A stretch of 4,037 nt of DNA from a virus (Duplodnaviria > Heunggongvirae > Uroviricota > Caudoviricetes). Under the pieces are notes generated by a model. It was not told where the DNA came from and did no database searches. It saw only the letters and a list, made by a program, of their open reading frames with translations. Position 1 is the first letter of the stretch. Each line of letters opens with the position of its first letter. Location: positions 1 to 4,037 of IMG/VR virus record IMGVR_UViG_2671180567_000004. The stretch is one strand, 5' to 3'. Shown here piece by piece: positions 1-3,903 of the stretch. Both the position numbers and the translations under genes were made by a program.

Positions 1-511
1 GTGAGGAGAAATAGGTGTTCTGCTTACCGTTATCCGTTGTCTGTGTACGGGGAGTTCTGGCTTTCGGTGCCAGCATCTGCGCCACACCACCCAGGATCAT
101 ACTGGCCCCTGCTGCATACATACCCGATACAGCCGCGGCCCCCAGCCAGCCCACAGGGTTCCACCATGCCACCGCAATCAGCGCCGCACCCAGCACTGCC
201 TGAAACACACCACCACTTTTGGCACCCACCAGGCGCGGCACGATGTGGATCACGGCACCATTTGCCAGCGGCTCATTAAGACGGGCAGATAATTCATTTT
301 CACCTGTATCACGCCCGGCAATGCGTACCTGATACCAGCCGTCGCTCAGCTTCTGACGAAACGCCGGGATCTGCATGGCCAGCGCCCGGATGGCTTCGGC
401 CCCCGTTTTTACACGAAGGTCGATGCGGCGGCCAAATCGTTGTAAATCCCCGTAAAGGCAGATGCGTGCCATGCCCGGTGACGCCAGAGGGAGTGTGTGC
501 GTCGCTGCCAT
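1..511 (-). CDS. I: tail assembly protein I (lambda gpI homolog), N-terminal ~170 codons; gene continues beyond the 5' edge of the window
   Basis: Not in the ORF track because no stop lies in the window. Hand translation of the reverse complement from ATG at 511..509 gives MAATHTLPLASPGMARICLYGDLQRFGRRIDLRVKTGAEAIRALAMQIPAFRQKLSDGWYQVRIAGRD...VIHIVPRLVGAKSGGVFQAVLGAALIAVAWWNP...ASMILGGVAQMLAPKARTPRTQTTDNGKQNTYFSS with no stop down to position 1. This matches my memory of lambda gpI, and the position after K fits lambda order. The start overlaps the 3' end of K by about 100 nt in another frame. Confidence 0.85.
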   Translation of the reverse strand, partial: MAATHTLPLASPGMARICLYGDLQRFGRRIDLRVKTGAEAIRALAMQIPAFRQKLSDGWYQVRIAGRDTGENELSARLNEPLANGAVIHIVPRLVGAKSGGVFQAVLGAALIAVAWWNPVGWLGAAAVSGMYAAGASMILGGVAQMLAPKARTPRTQTTDNGKQNTYFSS

Positions 512-1146
512 TTGTCGGTATACCTCTCTCGTTTGCTCAGTTGTTCAGGAATATGGTGCAGCAGCTCGCCGTCACCACAGTAAATGGCGGCATGATTCGG
601 CACCGATGAACCAAAACAGCACAGCAGCACATCGCCCGGTTGTGCTGATGACAACGGCACCTGATACAGCCCTGTGGCCTCCAGATTATCCAGATAGAGA
701 TTCTGACCGTGACGCCACCAGTCATCCCCGCGATGAAAATCCGGCATCTCAATCCCCGCCAGATGATAAGCATCCCGGAACAGCGTGTAACAGTCCGTCA
801 CCCCGTGCTCAAAGCGCCGCCCGGTGAGATGCGGCACACAGCGGAACTTATGAATCGCCCCCCGGCAGACCAGCCACCACGGCAAATCACTCTGCACCTG
901 CAGCCGCCGGTCGGCCTCACTCAGCCAGGGCAGACCACCGGGGTGGCTGTGGACCAGCGCCACAATCTCACCCTGCATTTCTGCCTGCAACCAGTCTTCC
1001 GGCAACATACGGAAATACGCCTCCGGCTCACCGGAGATATTCACGCAGGGGAAATATCTTTCCCCCTCCGGCGTGCTTACCACGAAGCCGCACGACTCCG
1101 CTGGCGCACATCGCCGGGCGTGCGCCAATATATTGCTATAGAGCAT
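409..1146 (-). CDS. K: tail tip assembly protein K (lambda gpK homolog); N-terminal MPN/JAMM-type domain plus C-terminal NlpC/P60-type domain
   Basis: ORF-track entry 409..1185 (258 aa) contains HSHPGGLPWLSEAD (JAMM-like H-x-H...S-x-x-D, His codon at 949..951) with an upstream glutamate, then a C-terminal Cys/His region (GVTDCYTLF, VPNHAAIY) typical of NlpC/P60 hydrolases. The protein matches my memory of lambda K. I place the start at the second in-frame ATG (1146..1144) because it is preceded by AGGAG (complement of 1152..1156) at 5-nt spacing, while the first ATG at 1185 has no Shine-Dalgarno and would put a terminator-like hairpin inside the coding sequence. Predicted 245 aa. Confidence 0.9.
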   Translation of the reverse strand: MLYSNILAHARRCAPAESCGFVVSTPEGERYFPCVNISGEPEAYFRMLPEDWLQAEMQGEIVALVHSHPGGLPWLSEADRRLQVQSDLPWWLVCRGAIHKFRCVPHLTGRRFEHGVTDCYTLFRDAYHLAGIEMPDFHRGDDWWRHGQNLYLDNLEATGLYQVPLSSAQPGDVLLCCFGSSVPNHAAIYCGDGELLHHIPEQLSKRERYTDKWQRRTHSLWRHRAWHASAFTGIYNDLAAASTFV

Positions 1147-1182: not shown

Positions 1183-1200
1183 CATTTCGTTGGCAATCTG

Positions 1201-2121
1201 TTAGTAGTGATGCAGTGAAGGAGGTAATTCTTTGTTCTTAAGTCTTACCCATGCAGAAAGATTCGTTGGTCCGTCTGGCTCATTAATATCAATATCTCGC
1301 GTGTGATTGATTAAAACGTCTCTCGCCATTCCGATAACATACGAGAACTCATGGCCGTAGTCGTAGCACCTGCCAGAATAGTTTGATTGAATTTGCTTTA
1401 GCGCCAGATACAGTTCGCGGAATAATGCCTGTGAGCGGTTGGCATAATCCCATAGCCATACAAGGCTGTTTGCTTCTTTTGCGGAAAGCTCGTTGGTGCT
1501 CTTCTCTTGTTTGCCGATTAACTCTCCTTCAAGCGGAACGCGAGCAGCAAGTGACAGAGCTTCGGTAAACTGCTCCTCGCTGATTTCTTTGTATGAACAC
1601 CCAAAATGAGATTTCAGTGACGACCACATGGTGATCATCGCCTTCGCCTGTTTTTCTTTTGGCAGAGACTGACCGCGACTCATGACGAGTTGTTTAATGG
1701 CTTCCTGCTGTTCAGTGGTGATTTTCCCCAGCAATGCCTTTTTAGCTTTGCGCGGGTTAATCACATGGCCTTTAGTCCAGTACTCGTAGAGCACATCGTC
1801 ACACTCTTCCTGATACTGGATTACCTTGTCGCGAATTTCAGGGCGGACTTTGTTAGGACTGATGGTTTGGAGCCAACCATTCAGTTTACGCAAAGCAAGG
1901 CAAATCATGGTCTGCATACCGCCAACTGAAGGTATTGCGATTTCCACAATACCTTTAGCAAATCTTTGTTTTAACTTTGTAAACTGTGAAGCCCAATCCA
2001 TACCCATTCCCTCAACGATAGGTTTCATTGGGGTGTACGGTTCGCCGTTGTGATTGACGACATAAAGCTCTGCGCCGTGGAATGGCACGTTGATAGTAGA
2101 TACCGCTGTTGCTATACTCAT
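1201..2121 (-). CDS. ant: phage antirepressor (Ant-like) protein, about 306 aa
   Basis: ORF-track entry 1201..2175 (324 aa from a GTG). I prefer the in-frame ATG at 2121..2119 because it is preceded by AAGGAA (complement of 2131..2136, 8-nt spacer) and the GTG at 2175 has no Shine-Dalgarno. The N-terminus MSIATAVSTINVPFHGAELYVVNHNGEPYTPMKPIVEGMGMDWASQFTKLK resembles phage antirepressor N-terminal domains (P22 Ant / Bro-N-like) from memory. Assignment is strengthened by the adjacent upstream Arc-like and divergent Mnt-like genes. Stop TAA at 1203..1201. Confidence 0.7.
   Translation of the reverse strand: MSIATAVSTINVPFHGAELYVVNHNGEPYTPMKPIVEGMGMDWASQFTKLKQRFAKGIVEIAIPSVGGMQTMICLALRKLNGWLQTISPNKVRPEIRDKVIQYQEECDDVLYEYWTKGHVINPRKAKKALLGKITTEQQEAIKQLVMSRGQSLPKEKQAKAMITMWSSLKSHFGCSYKEISEEQFTEALSLAARVPLEGELIGKQEKSTNELSAKEANSLVWLWDYANRSQALFRELYLALKQIQSNYSGRCYDYGHEFSYVIGMARDVLINHTRDIDINEPDGPTNLSAWVRLKNKELPPSLHHY
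2090..2118 (+). promoter_or_regulatory. candidate sigma70 promoter for an antisense (sar-like) RNA, inside the 5' end of ant
   Basis: Plus strand: -35 TTGATA (2090..2095), 17-bp spacer, extended -10 TGc TATACT (TG at 2110..2111, hexamer 2113..2118). Predicted start near 2125, reading antisense across the ant Shine-Dalgarno. Confidence 0.4.
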
Positions 2122-2124
2122 TTC

Positions 2125-2195
2125 GTTAGTTCCTTGGAAGTTACTGACATAGAAGCCCGATTTGTGTTCGCGCACTGTCGGGCTTCGCTATTTTT
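2125..2195 (+). ncRNA. candidate cis-antisense small RNA (sar-like, about 70 nt) complementary to the ant ribosome-binding site and arc-ant spacer
   Basis: Bounded by the candidate promoter at 2090..2118 and the plus-strand hairpin plus U-tract at 2152..2195. The transcript would contain UCCUUG, the complement of the ant Shine-Dalgarno. P22 immI is known to encode a short antisense RNA (sar) in the arc-ant spacer; this is an analogy, not a sequence match. Confidence 0.35.
2152..2195 (+). terminator. candidate unidirectional intrinsic terminator (plus strand) in the arc-ant spacer
   Basis: Inverted repeat GAAGCCCGA (2152..2160) / TCGGGCTTC (2178..2186) gives a 9-bp stem with a 17-nt loop that has an inner GTG/CAC pairing. 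On the plus strand it is followed by GCTATTTTTAT (T-run 2191..2195). On the minus strand no U-tract follows, so arc-to-ant read-through should not be stopped. Confidence 0.4.
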
Positions 2196-2361
2196 ATGTC
2201 CTAGCATTCTTCTCTCCAATCAGTCCGTACACTTTTCTCAATTGATAAATAAGTTCCGTGTTGAACTGTCGACACTCTTTTTCTCCATTTCTTTCAATCG
2301 CCTTCCTTACATCCTCTGGGAAACGAACCTTGCGTTGATACATGTCTTTTGCTTTTTCCAT
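2194..2361 (-). CDS. arc: Arc-like ribbon-helix-helix repressor, 55 aa (not in the ORF track)
   Basis: Hand translation of the minus strand from ATG 2361..2359 gives MEKAKDMYQRKVRFPEDVRKAIERNGEKECRQFNTELIYQLRKVYGLIGEKNART, stop TAA at 2196..2194. Strong Shine-Dalgarno AAGGAG with 5-nt spacer (complement of 2367..2372). The strand (KVRFPEDV), helix and N-cap (NTELIYQL) pattern closely resembles P22 Arc as I remember it (...NLRWPREV...NSEIYQRV...). It sits immediately upstream of ant on the same strand. Confidence 0.8.
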   Translation of the reverse strand: MEKAKDMYQRKVRFPEDVRKAIERNGEKECRQFNTELIYQLRKVYGLIGEKNART

Positions 2362-2399
2362 CTCCACTCCTTAAATAGCCTCACTATGGGGCAACCAAA

Positions 2400-2428
2400 A
2401 TTGTCACACCGTGCGTCATTGAAGTCAA
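2400..2428 (-). promoter_or_regulatory. candidate Pant-like sigma70 promoter driving arc-ant (minus strand)
   Basis: Minus strand reads TTGACT (complement of 2423..2428), 17-bp spacer, TGtGACAAT (extended -10; hexamer is complement of 2400..2405). Predicted start about 30 nt upstream of the arc ATG. The spacer contains CACCGTG (2407..2413). Confidence 0.45.
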
Positions 2429-2447
2429 CCCCACCGTGGGGCATAAT
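2419..2447 (+). promoter_or_regulatory. candidate Pmnt-like sigma70 promoter driving the Mnt-like gene (plus strand)
   Basis: Plus strand: -35 TTGAAG (2419..2424), 17-bp spacer, -10 CATAAT (2442..2447), about 37 bp before the ATG at 2485. Its -35 overlaps the -35 of the divergent minus-strand promoter back-to-back. The spacer contains the palindrome CCCCAC-C-GTGGGG (2429..2441). Confidence 0.5.
2429..2441. promoter_or_regulatory. candidate operator: 13-bp palindrome CCCCAC-C-GTGGGG
   Basis: Dyad symmetry (6-bp arms around a central C) between the two -35 elements and abutting the plus-strand -10. Its core CACCGTG recurs as a direct repeat at 2407..2413 inside the opposite promoter spacer. 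The size and symmetry suit a ribbon-helix-helix dimer or tetramer site. Confidence 0.45.
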
Positions 2448-2484
2448 TTACTTATTGTGAATTTTTCCTGTTTGGACTAATGGT

Positions 2485-2859
2485 ATGAGTAGAGAAGACC
2501 CTCAACTTCGGATTAGGCTTCCTGTTGAATTAAAAAAAATAATTGAAGCGTCATCAAAACAAAATAATCGTTCTATGAATGCTGAGATTGTCACTCTGCT
2601 TGAGTTGGCGATTCGTGTTTGTCGTGATTTTGGGCCGGAGGATGGTCCTATCGTTCAGCAGTTTAAAGAACAACTAGATGCGATAAACAGAAAATATGAT
2701 AAAAGCGAGCATGAAAAACTTATACCTCAACTTTTAGAAATCATAGAAAAACAGAAAAAACAAGTAGATAAACTTATTAGCATGGTTGAAAGATCAATTC
2801 CTCTTTCAGAGGAATATAAGCAGAAATATCTTGGTGATGACAACAAAAAACCCACCTGA
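2485..2859 (+). CDS. mnt: Mnt-like ribbon-helix-helix repressor with extended C-terminal helical region, 124 aa
   Basis: ORF-track entry 2485..2859. N-terminus MSREDPQLRIRLPVELKKIIEASSKQNNRSMNAEIVTLLELAI has the Arc/MetJ-type strand-helix-helix signature and resembles the P22 Mnt N-terminus as I remember it (RDDPHFNFRMP...NGRSMNSEL...). The C-terminal part (LIPQLLEIIEKQKKQVDKLISMVERS) is heptad-like and K/E-rich, consistent with an oligomerisation helix. It is divergent from arc-ant and convergent with L. Confidence 0.8.
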   Translation: MSREDPQLRIRLPVELKKIIEASSKQNNRSMNAEIVTLLELAIRVCRDFGPEDGPIVQQFKEQLDAINRKYDKSEHEKLIPQLLEIIEKQKKQVDKLISMVERSIPLSEEYKQKYLGDDNKKPT

Positions 2860-2866
2860 TGGTGGG
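2845..2866 (-). terminator. candidate intrinsic terminator on the minus strand just after the L stop codon
   Basis: Minus-strand RNA after the L stop (TAA, complement of 2876..2878) reads CCCACC-AUCA-GGUGGG followed directly by UUUUUU. Plus-strand coordinates: A-tract 2845..2850, stem arms 2851..2856 and 2861..2866. The hairpin overlaps the Mnt-like stop codon (TGA 2857..2859, in the loop). Confidence 0.5.
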
Positions 2867-2875
2867 CATAATCCA

Positions 2876-3574
2876 TTACTGCGAAAGTTTGTTAATGGAA
2901 AGGAAGCCGCCAAAGTTGCCGACGTTATTGCGAAACTTACAGCCACTCAGGCATTTGCTGCATTTATCCTTCGTGATATCGGACGTCGGCTGATCATATT
3001 CATCCGCGACTGCCGGACCGTGATAACCGCACTCATCACCGCGATAGGTCCAGGTGCAGGTGTTGGCCAGCATGATACGTCCCGGAAAAACAGCGCCGTC
3101 CGTTTCCGTCGGCGTGGACAGTACAAAAGAGGCACTCACCGCGCTCAGTTCGCTGCACTGCTCAATGCGCCAGCGGCTGATCACCTCCTGCTCCGGATCG
3201 GCGTCACTGTTTCCGTTGACGAAGTTCACCGCATCCAGAAAACGGGCGTAAACCTTACGCCGGACCACCGTTCCGCCGACCAGACTCTGCAGATCTTCCG
3301 CCATCCCGGTGACCATACCGTACAGGTTAGAAACCGTCAGCGTGGGGCGCGTACTGGTGCCTTTGCCATTCAGTTCAAAACCACTCCCCTGAATGGGATA
3401 CGGCTGATACTGTCGCCCCTGCCAGGTGACCGGCTCACCTTTTTCGTTCTGCTCATTACAGAAAAAATAACGTTCTCCACCGACCTCTGTCAGGTCGATT
3501 TCCCAGAGCACCACGCTGGCCGACTGCTCCGCACGGGTGCATTCATTCAGTGTTTCCTGCCGGATATCCTGCAT
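2876..3574 (-). CDS. L: minor tail protein L (lambda gpL homolog), 232 aa
   Basis: ORF-track protein MQDIRQETLNECTRAEQSASVVLWEIDLTEVGGERYFFCNEQNEKGEPVTWQGRQYQPYPIQ...CSKCLSGCKFRNNVGNFGGFLSINKLSQ matches lambda gpL almost along its whole length from memory. The start ATG overlaps the M stop (TGATG, 3576..3572). Four C-terminal cysteines are present. Confidence 0.95.
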   Translation of the reverse strand: MQDIRQETLNECTRAEQSASVVLWEIDLTEVGGERYFFCNEQNEKGEPVTWQGRQYQPYPIQGSGFELNGKGTSTRPTLTVSNLYGMVTGMAEDLQSLVGGTVVRRKVYARFLDAVNFVNGNSDADPEQEVISRWRIEQCSELSAVSASFVLSTPTETDGAVFPGRIMLANTCTWTYRGDECGYHGPAVADEYDQPTSDITKDKCSKCLSGCKFRNNVGNFGGFLSINKLSQ

Positions 3575-3903
3575 CAGTTCACCACCTGTTCAAACTCTGC
3601 GCTGAACTCAACACGCAGCATACTGACCCGCGACGACCATTTTGCGCAGGTCACCTTTATCTGCCGCCACTCATAAGGCGGCGTCCACAGAAAGGCTTTC
3701 CAGCCCCCGTGCTCTTCCAGAAACGACTCCAGTACCGTGGCCTCCTCACGGGGGACAGAAAGCGTCACGCTGTACGTTTTCAGGTTGGCATTCAGCCCGG
3801 CAGGCGCTCGCTGGGAATAGCCATCACCAAAGCGCACCTTTCTTACAGAAGGGGCCGAAGCCACATCCATACCGGGTTTCACTTTCCAGCGGAAGGTTTT
3901 CAT
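3574..3903 (-). CDS. M: minor tail protein M (lambda gpM homolog), 109 aa
   Basis: ORF-track protein MKTFRWKVKPGMDVASAPSVRKVRFGDGYSQRAPAGLNANLKTYSVTLSVPREEATVLESFLEEHGGWKAFLWTPPYEWRQIKVTCAKWSSRVSMLRVEFSAEFEQVVN is near-identical to lambda gpM from memory. The start overlaps the H stop (ATGA). Confidence 0.95.
   Translation of the reverse strand: MKTFRWKVKPGMDVASAPSVRKVRFGDGYSQRAPAGLNANLKTYSVTLSVPREEATVLESFLEEHGGWKAFLWTPPYEWRQIKVTCAKWSSRVSMLRVEFSAEFEQVVN

What the first reader, a model, noticed from the sequence alone, without database searches (positions are those of the whole stretch)
2194..2361. Unannotated 55-aa Arc-like ribbon-helix-helix gene upstream of ant
The ORF track has no entry here, but the minus strand encodes MEKAKDMYQRKVRFPEDVRKAIERNGEKECRQFNTELIYQLRKVYGLIGEKNART behind a near-consensus Shine-Dalgarno (AAGGAG, 5-nt spacer). 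Its strand and helix motifs resemble P22 Arc, the repressor of Pant. Its presence turns a simple repressor-plus-antirepressor pair into a full three-gene immI-like circuit. A plus-strand track ORF (2050..2460) covers the same DNA and could mislead annotation.
Basis: seen in the sequence. Interest (0 to 1): 0.7.

Follow-up and report, generated by a model that had tools for sequence, protein, structure and literature searches.

The report
Arc-type repressor gene upstream of ant
The 55-codon minus-strand reading frame is a real, conserved gene for a small Arc-type DNA-binding repressor in a P22-style antirepressor control cassette inserted among prophage tail genes; it is an ordinary new member of a classic system, and public databases already call the gene.

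Summary
Observation confirmed. The ORF at 2194-2361(-) is there, with AAGGAG, a 5-nt spacer and ATG as described.

It is a real gene:
- The frame is open in all 94 related loci from at least 10 enterobacterial genera.
- Variable sites fall mainly at third codon positions (48/52, against 24 and 15).
- dN/dS is about 0.06.
- The overlapping plus-strand ORF 2050-2460 is broken in 9 of 14 relatives and is spurious.

It belongs to the Arc ribbon-helix-helix (RHH) family:
- A profile built without P22 sequences hits solved P22 Arc at E=6e-9, in the same residue register.
- The AlphaFold model has an extended N-terminus and two helices, and its best fold matches are Arc.

The cassette is a complete immI-type module:
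- a divergent Mnt-like repressor;
- three conserved operator-like palindromes around back-to-back promoters;
- arc-like;
- a diverged sar-like antisense RNA;
- ant.

It lies as a low-GC insert between tail genes L and K.

RefSeq calls the gene "hypothetical protein", and other records name the identical protein "Arc family DNA-binding".

Most likely function, inferred and not shown: autorepression of the arc-ant promoter, as in P22. Interest is low.

The parts
2194..2361 (-). arc-like gene: 55-aa Arc-family ribbon-helix-helix protein (stop codon included)
   Evidence: RefSeq CDS WP_001579610.1
2367..2372 (-). Shine-Dalgarno AAGGAG, 5 nt before the ATG of the arc-like gene
   Evidence: read directly from the sequence
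1201..2121 (-). ant: P22-type antirepressor (P22_AR_N + P22_AR_C), 72 nt downstream of the arc-like gene
   Evidence: Pfam E=5e-45 and 5e-28; 56% identical to P22 Ant
2485..2859 (+). mnt-like gene: 124-aa protein with an N-terminal Arc-family RHH domain and a C-terminal part with no Pfam family match at the curated cut-off; transcribed divergently
   Evidence: Pfam Arc E=3e-7; 33% identical to the P22 Mnt N-domain; an Mnt-like N-domain lies next to the arc-like gene in all 94 related loci
2400..2428 (-). Pant-like promoter: -35 TTGACT (2428-2423), 17-nt spacer, TG-extended -10 GACAAT (2405-2400); predicted start near 2393
   Evidence: nearly invariant across 66 aligned distinct cassettes
2419..2447 (+). 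Pmnt-like promoter: -35 TTGAAG, 17-nt spacer, -10 CATAAT; lies back-to-back with the Pant-like promoter, and the two -35 hexamers overlap
2428..2443 (.). O3: palindrome CCCCACCGTGGGG inside the Pmnt-like spacer and directly upstream of the Pant-like -35
   Evidence: chance expectation 0.10 matches in the window; conserved in related cassettes; central 9 bp CCACGGTGG identical to the palindrome in P22 that I know as Omnt
2403..2418 (.). O2: related site GACGCACGGTGTGAC (minus-strand reading) between the -35 and -10 of the Pant-like promoter, where Oarc lies in P22
2378..2393 (.). O1: degenerate copy of the palindrome (GCCCCATAGTGAGGC on the minus strand) at about +1 to +15 of the Pant-like transcript, where Omnt lies in P22
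2090..2118 (+). Psar-like promoter TTGATA-17-TATACT (10 of 12, with TG), antisense inside the first codons of ant
   Evidence: a -10-like hexamer lies 3 nt from the start-codon complement in 50 of 52 distinct cassettes
2125..2196 (+). sar-like antisense RNA (about 70 nt) complementary to the ant ribosome-binding site and the arc-ant spacer; terminator hairpin 2152-2186 followed by a T-run
   Evidence: Rfam sar 15.6 bits, below the cut-off; relatives pass the cut-off; covariation; z = -4.7
2850..2867 (-). intrinsic terminator hairpin with T-run, directly after tail gene L at the edge of the insert; overlaps the last codons (KKPT) of the mnt-like gene
   Evidence: same layout in P22
2876..3574 (-). 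flank: minor tail protein L
   Evidence: RefSeq annotation
409..1146 (-). flank: tail protein K (C40 peptidase)
   Evidence: RefSeq annotation

Best explanation
The ORF at 2194-2361(-) is an expressed gene for a small Arc-family ribbon-helix-helix repressor. It is the first gene of an arc-ant operon in an immI-type 'ant moron' inserted between tail genes L and K of a lambda-like prophage.

Proposed mechanism, by analogy with P22 Arc:
1. The protein dimerises and forms a two-stranded beta-ribbon. Residues Q9, K11 and R13 would read the DNA major groove.
2. It binds an operator that overlaps the arc-ant promoter. The most likely site is O2, in the -35/-10 spacer.
3. It thereby shuts off its own synthesis and that of the antirepressor after a short burst.
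4. The divergent Mnt-like protein would hold the same promoter off in the lysogen through the palindromes O1 and O3, with O3 also giving autoregulation.
5. A sar-like antisense RNA would block ant translation.

Shown here: the gene is real and under purifying selection, it belongs to the Arc family and has that fold, the gene order is conserved, the operator-like sites and promoters are conserved, and the sar-like element is conserved.

Inferred only: DNA binding, which protein binds which site, the direction of regulation, and expression.

The confidence of 0.72 is for the whole statement, including the Arc-like autorepressor role. For 'real gene encoding an Arc-family RHH protein' alone I would give about 0.95.
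For: Real gene:
- The frame is intact in 94 of 94 loci.
- Variable sites by codon position are 24/15/48 of 52, and dN/dS is about 0.06.
- A strong Shine-Dalgarno sequence precedes the ATG.

Arc family:
- Pfam Arc E=1.1e-3 on this sequence; 20 of 30 homologues match at E<=0.01.
- About 30 of 38 distant relatives are Pfam Arc members at E<=0.001.
- The profile with no P22 sequence hits PDB Arc at E=6e-9 in identical register.
- hhalign gives a gapless match of residues 4-43 to P22 Arc 4-43, P=2.4e-4.
- The AlphaFold2 topology and the Foldseek ranking fit an RHH fold.

Circuit:
- P22-type ant lies 72 nt downstream, against 68 nt in P22.
- A divergent Mnt-like gene is present in every locus.
- The downstream gene is always an antirepressor type, P22_AR_N or Bro-N.
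- The block ATTATGCCCCACGGTGGGG-TTGACnn-CAATGACGCACGGTGTGACA is nearly invariant across 66 aligned distinct cassettes. The adjacent spacer varies in sequence and length, and the O1 palindrome then follows.
- O2 lies where Oarc lies in P22, and O1 lies where Omnt lies.
- sar: Rfam passes its cut-off in 5 of 20 related cassettes at the same position. The terminator stem covaries, and the fold has z = -4.7.
Against: - The single-sequence Pfam score is below the curated cut-off (19.2 against 20.4 bits).
- The profile of close homologues alone gives only E=0.06-0.15 against PDB Arc.
- Foldseek E-values are not significant.
- No expression or binding data exist.
- The three operator-like sites are related to one another, and the two repressors have near-identical predicted DNA-reading residues (Q-K-R and Q-R-R). 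The assignment of O2 to the Arc-like protein therefore rests on position only.
- The promoters lie back-to-back, not face-to-face as in P22, so the regulatory logic may differ.
- O1 in this window carries three changes from the family consensus. The module may be decaying.
Confidence: 0.72

Rival explanations
1. The two RHH proteins share one operator family. The Arc-like and Mnt-like proteins would compete or cooperate on O1, O2 and O3, forming a CI/Cro-like toggle across the back-to-back promoters. P22 instead uses two independent operator specificities.
For: - O1, O2 and O3 share the core CAC(G/C)GTG and lie 25 bp apart.
- Hybrid sites occur naturally: O2 with an O1/O3-type half in L009, L037 and L076, and O3 with an O2-type half in L002 and L004.
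- The predicted DNA-facing residues are Q9/K11/R13 in the Arc-like protein and Q7/R9/R11 in the Mnt-like protein.
- The Mnt-like N-domain aligns directly to the arc-like ORF in two Pantoea loci, E=2e-4.
Against: - There are no binding data.
- O2 differs consistently from O1 and O3 in its flanks, and this is nearly invariant across cassettes. That fits a second specificity.
- P22 is a precedent for separate operators.
Confidence: 0.2
2. The ORF is an RHH antitoxin-like or accessory protein that acts on Ant or another protein partner and is not a transcriptional autorepressor.
For: Many small RHH proteins are antitoxins. The distant relatives also match the FitA-like, ParD-like and CopG-antitoxin models, and VapB, AtaR and TacA antitoxins appear among the fold matches.
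Against: - The downstream partner is always an antirepressor (P22_AR_N or Bro-N), never a toxin family.
- The protein is only 55 aa and has no C-terminal toxin-binding extension.
- The best sequence and fold matches are Arc itself.
- Conserved operators overlap its promoter.
Confidence: 0.04
3. The frame is not functionally expressed here. It would be an intact-looking relic in a decaying prophage module, or the plus-strand ORF 2050-2460 would be the real gene.
For: - O1 carries three substitutions from the consensus in this window.
- Only 2 of 5426 complete E. coli genomes carry the whole cassette in this form.
Against: - The frame, Shine-Dalgarno sequence, promoter, O2, O3, sar-like element and ant are all intact.
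- The identical protein is found on 499 contigs.
- The plus-strand frame is broken in 9 of 14 relatives and has no family match.
Confidence: 0.04

Closest known systems
P22 Arc repressor (immI region; PDB 1ARQ, 1PAR; Pfam PF03869)
   Same: - Size: 55 aa against 53 aa.
- Gapless alignment of residues 4-43.
- R13, P15, R31 and E36 are kept in P22 Arc and across the wider family; Q9 and N34 are shared with P22 Arc in the pairwise alignment.
- Predicted strand-helix-helix topology.
- First gene of an arc-ant operon, divergent from an mnt-type gene, with a hairpin-containing spacer of about 70 nt that encodes an antisense RNA.
   Different: - Only about 23% identical.
- Residue 11 is K where Arc has N, and residue 40 is Q where Arc has R. 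By my recollection Arc R40 belongs to the R31-E36-R40 salt-bridge triad.
- The candidate operator is unrelated in sequence to the P22 site at the equivalent position (ATGATAGAAGCACTCTACTAT, which I know as Oarc).
- The promoters lie back-to-back with overlapping -35 hexamers, whereas in P22 they overlap fully and face each other.
- The host phage is a lambda-like siphovirus and the module lies between tail genes L and K, not a P22-like podovirus with the module upstream of the tailspike gene.
Escherichia phage TL-2011b gp41 'Arc-like repressor' with gp42 Ant, and the 'Arc family DNA-binding protein' entries of NCBI for this family
   Same: - 79% identical protein, the same arc-ant order and the same 72-nt spacer.
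- The Rfam sar model passes its cut-off there (L004).
- The same three operators are present.
   Different: - The genome context differs: no tail K or L genes flank it.
- Its O1 is the perfect palindrome, and its O3 is a hybrid variant.
- None of these proteins appears to have been studied experimentally. I found no paper on them.
P22 Mnt repressor and its operator
   Same: - The divergent 124-aa protein has an Arc-family N-domain 33% identical to that of Mnt.
- O3 and O1 share the central 9 bp CCACGGTGG with the P22 palindrome AGGTCCACGGTGGACCT.
- O1 lies at the transcript start of the ant promoter, as Omnt does.
   Different: - There is no match to the Mnt C-terminal family PF11423.
- There are two copies of the palindrome plus a third related site, instead of one operator.
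sar RNA of P22 (Rfam RF00262)
   Same: - Same position and strand, antisense to the ant ribosome-binding site.
- Same two-hairpin shape, and a promoter inside the first ant codons.
   Different: The window copy scores 15.6 bits against a cut-off of 43. Standard Rfam annotation would miss it.

Membership tests
Arc-like DNA-binding domain (Pfam PF03869) / ribbon-helix-helix superfamily | Sequence match to the family profile at the curated threshold | tested here: inconclusive
   - The window protein scores 19.2 bits against a cut-off of 20.4, E=1.1e-3.
- Twenty of 30 close homologues match at E<=0.01, the best at 8.8e-6.
- About 30 of 38 distant relatives match at E<=0.001.
Arc-like DNA-binding domain (Pfam PF03869) / ribbon-helix-helix superfamily | Profile-level homology to experimentally solved Arc, Mnt and other RHH proteins | tested here: met
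   Profile A3, which holds no P22 sequence, hits Arc (1arq, 1baz) at E=6e-9 over residues 1-37 to 1-37, AmrZ at 2.6e-9 and Mnt at 4e-6.
Arc-like DNA-binding domain (Pfam PF03869) / ribbon-helix-helix superfamily | Fold: N-terminal beta-strand followed by two alpha-helices | tested here: met
   - The AlphaFold2 model has pLDDT 79, with residues 1-15 extended, helix 16-28 and helix 33-44.
- The Foldseek list is led by Arc (1par, 1baz: rmsd 1.6 A over 40 residues) and is otherwise almost all RHH proteins, but the E-values are 0.13 or higher.
- The strand cannot be scored in a monomer model.
Arc-like DNA-binding domain (Pfam PF03869) / ribbon-helix-helix superfamily | Obligate dimer whose paired beta-strands bind the DNA major groove | not testable with these tools
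P22 immI-type circuit (mnt / arc / sar / ant) | Gene order: mnt divergent from arc, then ant | tested here: met
   The order is conserved in related loci, with a mosaic antirepressor gene downstream.
P22 immI-type circuit (mnt / arc / sar / ant) | Operators that overlap the ant promoter, one in the -35/-10 spacer and one at the transcript start | tested here: inconclusive
   Conserved operator-like sites O2 (spacer) and O1 (transcript start) lie at these positions, and O3 lies in the mnt-like promoter. Their occupancy by either protein is untested.
P22 immI-type circuit (mnt / arc / sar / ant) | Face-to-face, fully overlapping Pant and Pmnt promoters | tested here: not met
   Here the predicted promoters lie back-to-back and share only part of their -35 hexamers. 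The P22 arrangement is shown. These are consensus predictions only.
sar RNA (Rfam RF00262) | Covariance-model score at or above the gathering score of 43 bits | tested here: not met
   The window region 2125-2189(+) scores 15.6 bits, E=0.84. P22 scores 97.8 bits. Five of 20 related cassettes score 44.8-60.8 bits at the same position.
sar RNA (Rfam RF00262) | Antisense promoter in the first ant codons, complementarity to the ant ribosome-binding site, and a terminator hairpin in the arc-ant spacer | tested here: met
   (4 of 9 stem pairs show compensatory changes).

The most novel reading that the evidence does not exclude
This widespread enterobacterial cassette is a rewired immI. Its two ribbon-helix-helix repressors have nearly identical DNA-reading residues (Q-K-R and Q-R-R) and act on one family of three 25-bp-spaced palindromic operators around back-to-back promoters. 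That would give a CI/Cro-like competitive toggle controlling interchangeable antirepressor genes. The classic P22 design instead has two unrelated operators and face-to-face promoters.
Probability: 0.25. Interest if true: 0.45.

Novelty: new member of a known kind. Interest (0 to 1): 0.25.

Why it matters
For annotation, the 55-aa gene should be named an Arc-family repressor, and the overlapping 136-aa plus-strand ORF should be discarded. The L-K insert should be read as a complete, self-regulated antirepressor module with two repressors, an antisense RNA and ant.

Such modules let one prophage induce or cross-talk with others (Lemire et al. 2011, PMC3121763). Knowing that ant here is under layered immI-type control bears on predictions of prophage inducibility in E. 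coli.

The cassette is portable. The same regulatory core drives P22_AR_N-type or Bro-N-type antirepressors in at least 10 genera. It could serve as a compact natural model for how RHH repressors and their operators diversify.

None of this changes current understanding. It extends a textbook system to siphovirus tail operons.

Tried and rejected
- The profile of close homologues only (A1) against PDB sequences gave Arc at E=0.06-0.15, below some spurious hits such as designed proteins and the primase large subunit. It was uninformative until distant relatives were added.
- The A2 profile search of the PDB is discounted because I had put P22 Arc and Mnt into that alignment. One search is the clean test.
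- The first AlphaFold2 run used the shallow alignment and gave pLDDT 65 with a spurious N-terminal helix. Its Foldseek search was meaningless.
- Rfam on the whole window found nothing for sar. The weak match appeared only in a restricted search.
- I looked for covariation between beta-strand residues and operator variants to assign proteins to sites. The DNA-facing residues do not vary across the loci, so there is no signal.
- Literature searches found no description of this cassette or of an ant moron between lambda-type tail genes L and K. They returned only the P22-like 'ant moron' (PMC2629481) and work on other antirepressors.
- I rejected the plus-strand ORF 2050-2460 as a gene.
- I rejected the GTG at 2367 as the start codon. 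It lies inside the Shine-Dalgarno sequence, and the homologues and RefSeq use the ATG position.

Full report
**1. The observation**

The window holds lambda-type tail genes on the minus strand. They are the end of H, then M (3574-3903), L (2876-3574), K (a C40 peptidase, 409-1146) and the start of I. A 1.7-kb insert interrupts them between L and K. The insert has 34-48% GC, against 55-62% in the flanks.

AAGGAG lies at 2372-2367, followed by a 5-nt spacer and ATG at 2361. The mechanical ORF list extends the frame to a GTG at 2367 (57 aa), which is still under 60 aa. The plus-strand ORF 2050-2460 also exists.

**2. It is a real gene**

I collected 94 related loci:
- 11 genomes of Rouxiella, Raoultella, Pluralibacter, Citrobacter, Kluyvera, Proteus, Dryocola and Pantoea;
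- 80 viral contigs;
- an E. coli P22-like prophage and phage TL-2011b;
- the window itself.

The frame is open in all of them, at 55 aa (58 aa in the two Proteus loci). Across 14 diverse loci, the variable sites by codon position are 24, 15 and 48 of 52. Synonymous sites are mostly saturated. Where dN/dS could be computed, it is about 0.06.

The antisense frame, which corresponds to the plus-strand ORF 2050-2460, has stop codons in 9 of 14 loci and no Pfam match. It is spurious.

**3. It is an Arc-family ribbon-helix-helix protein**

- Sequence alone: Pfam Arc E=1.1e-3, 19.2 bits, just under the 20.4-bit cut-off. Twenty of 30 close homologues match Arc at E<=0.01, the best at 8.8e-6.
- Distant relatives: an exhaustive HMM search with the family profile found 42 cluster representatives. 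I took 38 of them into alignment A2, and about 30 of those match Pfam Arc at E<=0.001.
- Solved structures: a profile of the window protein, close homologues and these distant relatives, with no P22 sequence, hits solved P22 Arc at E=6e-9 with residues 1-37 aligned to 1-37. It also hits AmrZ at 2.6e-9 and Mnt at 4e-6.
- Pairwise: hhalign gives a gapless match of residues 4-43 to Arc 4-43. This places Q9, K11 and R13 where Arc has Q9, N11 and R13. By my recollection of the 1PAR structure, those are the residues that contact DNA.
- Conserved positions: R13, P15, R31, E36 and L41 are nearly invariant across the wider family.
- Model: with the deeper alignment, AlphaFold2 gives pLDDT 79, an extended N-terminus, helix 16-28 and helix 33-44. 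Its Foldseek list is led by Arc (1par, 1baz) and is otherwise almost entirely RHH proteins. The E-values are not significant for so short a chain.
- Limit: the dimer could not be modelled.

**4. The surroundings form a complete immI-type module**

*Genes.* Downstream by 72 nt lies a P22-type antirepressor, with P22_AR_N at E=5e-45 and P22_AR_C at E=5e-28. It is 56% identical to P22 Ant. Upstream and divergent lies a 124-aa protein whose N-terminal domain belongs to the Arc family (E=3e-7) and is 33% identical to P22 Mnt. The P22 immI record has the same order. Its arc-ant spacer is 68 nt.

*Conservation of the pair.* In all 94 loci the arc-like gene is paired with a divergent MSREDPQLRIRLP-type Mnt-like gene about 120 bp away. 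The downstream gene is mosaic but always an antirepressor type: P22_AR_N, or Bro-N with or without P22_AR_C.

*Control region.* The block ATTATG-CCCCACGGTGGGG-TTGACnn-CAATGACGCACGGTGTGACA(A/C)T is nearly invariant across 66 aligned distinct cassettes. The next 6-12 nt vary freely in sequence and length. A third site, tGCC(C/T)CACGGTG(G/A)GGCa, then follows.

In the window these sites are O3 (2428-2443), O2 (2403-2418) and O1 (2378-2393), spaced 25 bp apart. The 15-mer consensus matches only at O1 and O3 in the window, against 0.10 matches expected by chance.

*Promoters.* Consensus scans place a Pant-like promoter with its -35 at 2428-2423 and a TG-extended -10 at 2405-2400. A Pmnt-like promoter has its -35 at 2419-2424 and its -10 at 2442-2447. 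It follows that:
- O2 lies in the Pant-like spacer, where the P22 Arc operator lies.
- O1 lies at about +1 to +15 of the transcript, where the P22 Mnt operator lies. O1 and O3 share the central CCACGGTGG with that P22 palindrome.
- O3 lies in the Pmnt-like spacer.

Unlike P22, whose two promoters overlap fully and face each other, these lie back-to-back with overlapping -35 hexamers.

**5. A sar-like antisense RNA is present**

- A strong plus-strand promoter, TTGATA-17-TATACT with TG, lies at 2090-2118 inside the first ant codons.
- The transcript would run from about 2125 through a 9-bp-stem hairpin (2152-2186) and a T-run.
- The 72-nt RNA folds into two hairpins with the anti-Shine-Dalgarno sequence in and beside the first loop. 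MFE is -28.3 kcal/mol and z = -4.7.
- The Rfam sar model scores 97.8 bits on P22 but only 15.6 bits here, where the cut-off is 43. At the same position, 5 of 20 related cassettes pass the cut-off.
- The terminator stem shows compensatory changes at 4 of 9 pairs.
- A -10-like hexamer lies 3 nt from the start-codon complement in 50 of 52 distinct cassettes, whichever antirepressor follows.

**6. Mechanism**

The best-supported reading is that the 55-aa protein is the functional counterpart of P22 Arc. It would be made from the Pant-like promoter together with Ant. It would then bind as a dimer or tetramer to an operator overlapping that promoter, most likely O2, and shut the operon off. The Mnt-like protein would maintain repression in the lysogen through O1 and O3. 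The sar-like RNA would limit ant translation.

Binding, site assignment and expression are all inferred. The three sites are related to one another. The two proteins also have near-identical predicted reading residues, Q-K-R and Q-R-R. A shared-operator toggle therefore cannot be excluded.

**7. Comparison and novelty**

Villafane et al. (PMC2629481) describe the 'ant moron' of P22-like phages and its mnt/arc/sar/ant content. Here the same kind of module lies in a siphovirus tail operon. About 19 of the 94 loci have lambda-type K and/or L genes flanking the cassette. Klebsiella-type loci carry it after the tail-tube gene.

The gene itself is already called in public records:
- RefSeq names it 'hypothetical protein'.
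- The identical protein is named 'Arc family DNA binding domain-containing protein' in other records and occurs on 499 contigs.
- TL-2011b gp41, 79% identical, is annotated 'Arc-like repressor'.

I found no experimental work on this family. It is a new member of a known kind, with a somewhat different promoter and operator layout.

**8. Verdict**

The 'unannotated' aspect comes from an ORF length threshold. Interest is low, about 0.25.

Noticed in passing
window 2090-2196 (+): A sar-like antisense RNA with its own strong promoter lies inside the first codons of ant. It is too diverged for the Rfam sar model (15.6 bits against a cut-off of 43), but related cassettes pass the cut-off at the same position and the terminator stem covaries.
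   Followed up: yes
window 2378-2443: Three related 15-bp operator-like sites lie at 25-bp spacing around back-to-back divergent promoters. They are nearly invariant across 66 aligned distinct cassettes, while the adjacent spacer varies. The window's O1 copy carries three changes from the consensus CCCCACGGTGGGG, and sister E. coli copies carry one or two.
   Followed up: partly
window 2840-2867 (-): An intrinsic terminator lies directly after tail gene L, at the edge of the insert. Late tail-operon transcription would have to read through it. Its A-run and stem also encode the conserved C-terminal KKPT of the Mnt-like protein. P22 has the same layout at the end of mnt (X01916 positions 22-35).
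   Followed up: partly
L003 2960-4137 (E. coli EC12, NZ_CP070229): The same L-K slot holds an alternative module: a LexA-family repressor, an unrelated 57-aa ORF with an RHH-like sequence pattern (MEQKKKDIKPISYRPSAEVREFLEG...), a sar-like hairpin and a 92% identical ant. The regulators are swapped while the antirepressor is kept.
   Followed up: partly
L085 (IMGVR_UViG_2808606796_000003), upstream of 2501: This cassette variant appears to have lost the promoter/O2 block between O3 and O1. A single hybrid palindrome remains in front of the arc-like gene.
   Followed up: no
window 2485-2859 versus L006-L016 upstream genes: The Mnt-like protein is mosaic. The N-terminal RHH domain is conserved everywhere. 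The window's 79-aa C-terminal part is found only in close E. coli relatives, and most loci carry a different C-terminal domain of about 100 aa.
   Followed up: partly
L002 624-809 (E. coli KC-Dl-1 prophage): Rfam isrK and C4 antisense RNA match above their cut-offs about 3 kb from the arc-like cassette, in a P22-like prophage.
   Followed up: no
window 1190-2870: The insert has 34-48% GC, against 55-62% in the flanking tail genes. This is a typical moron signature.
   Followed up: yes
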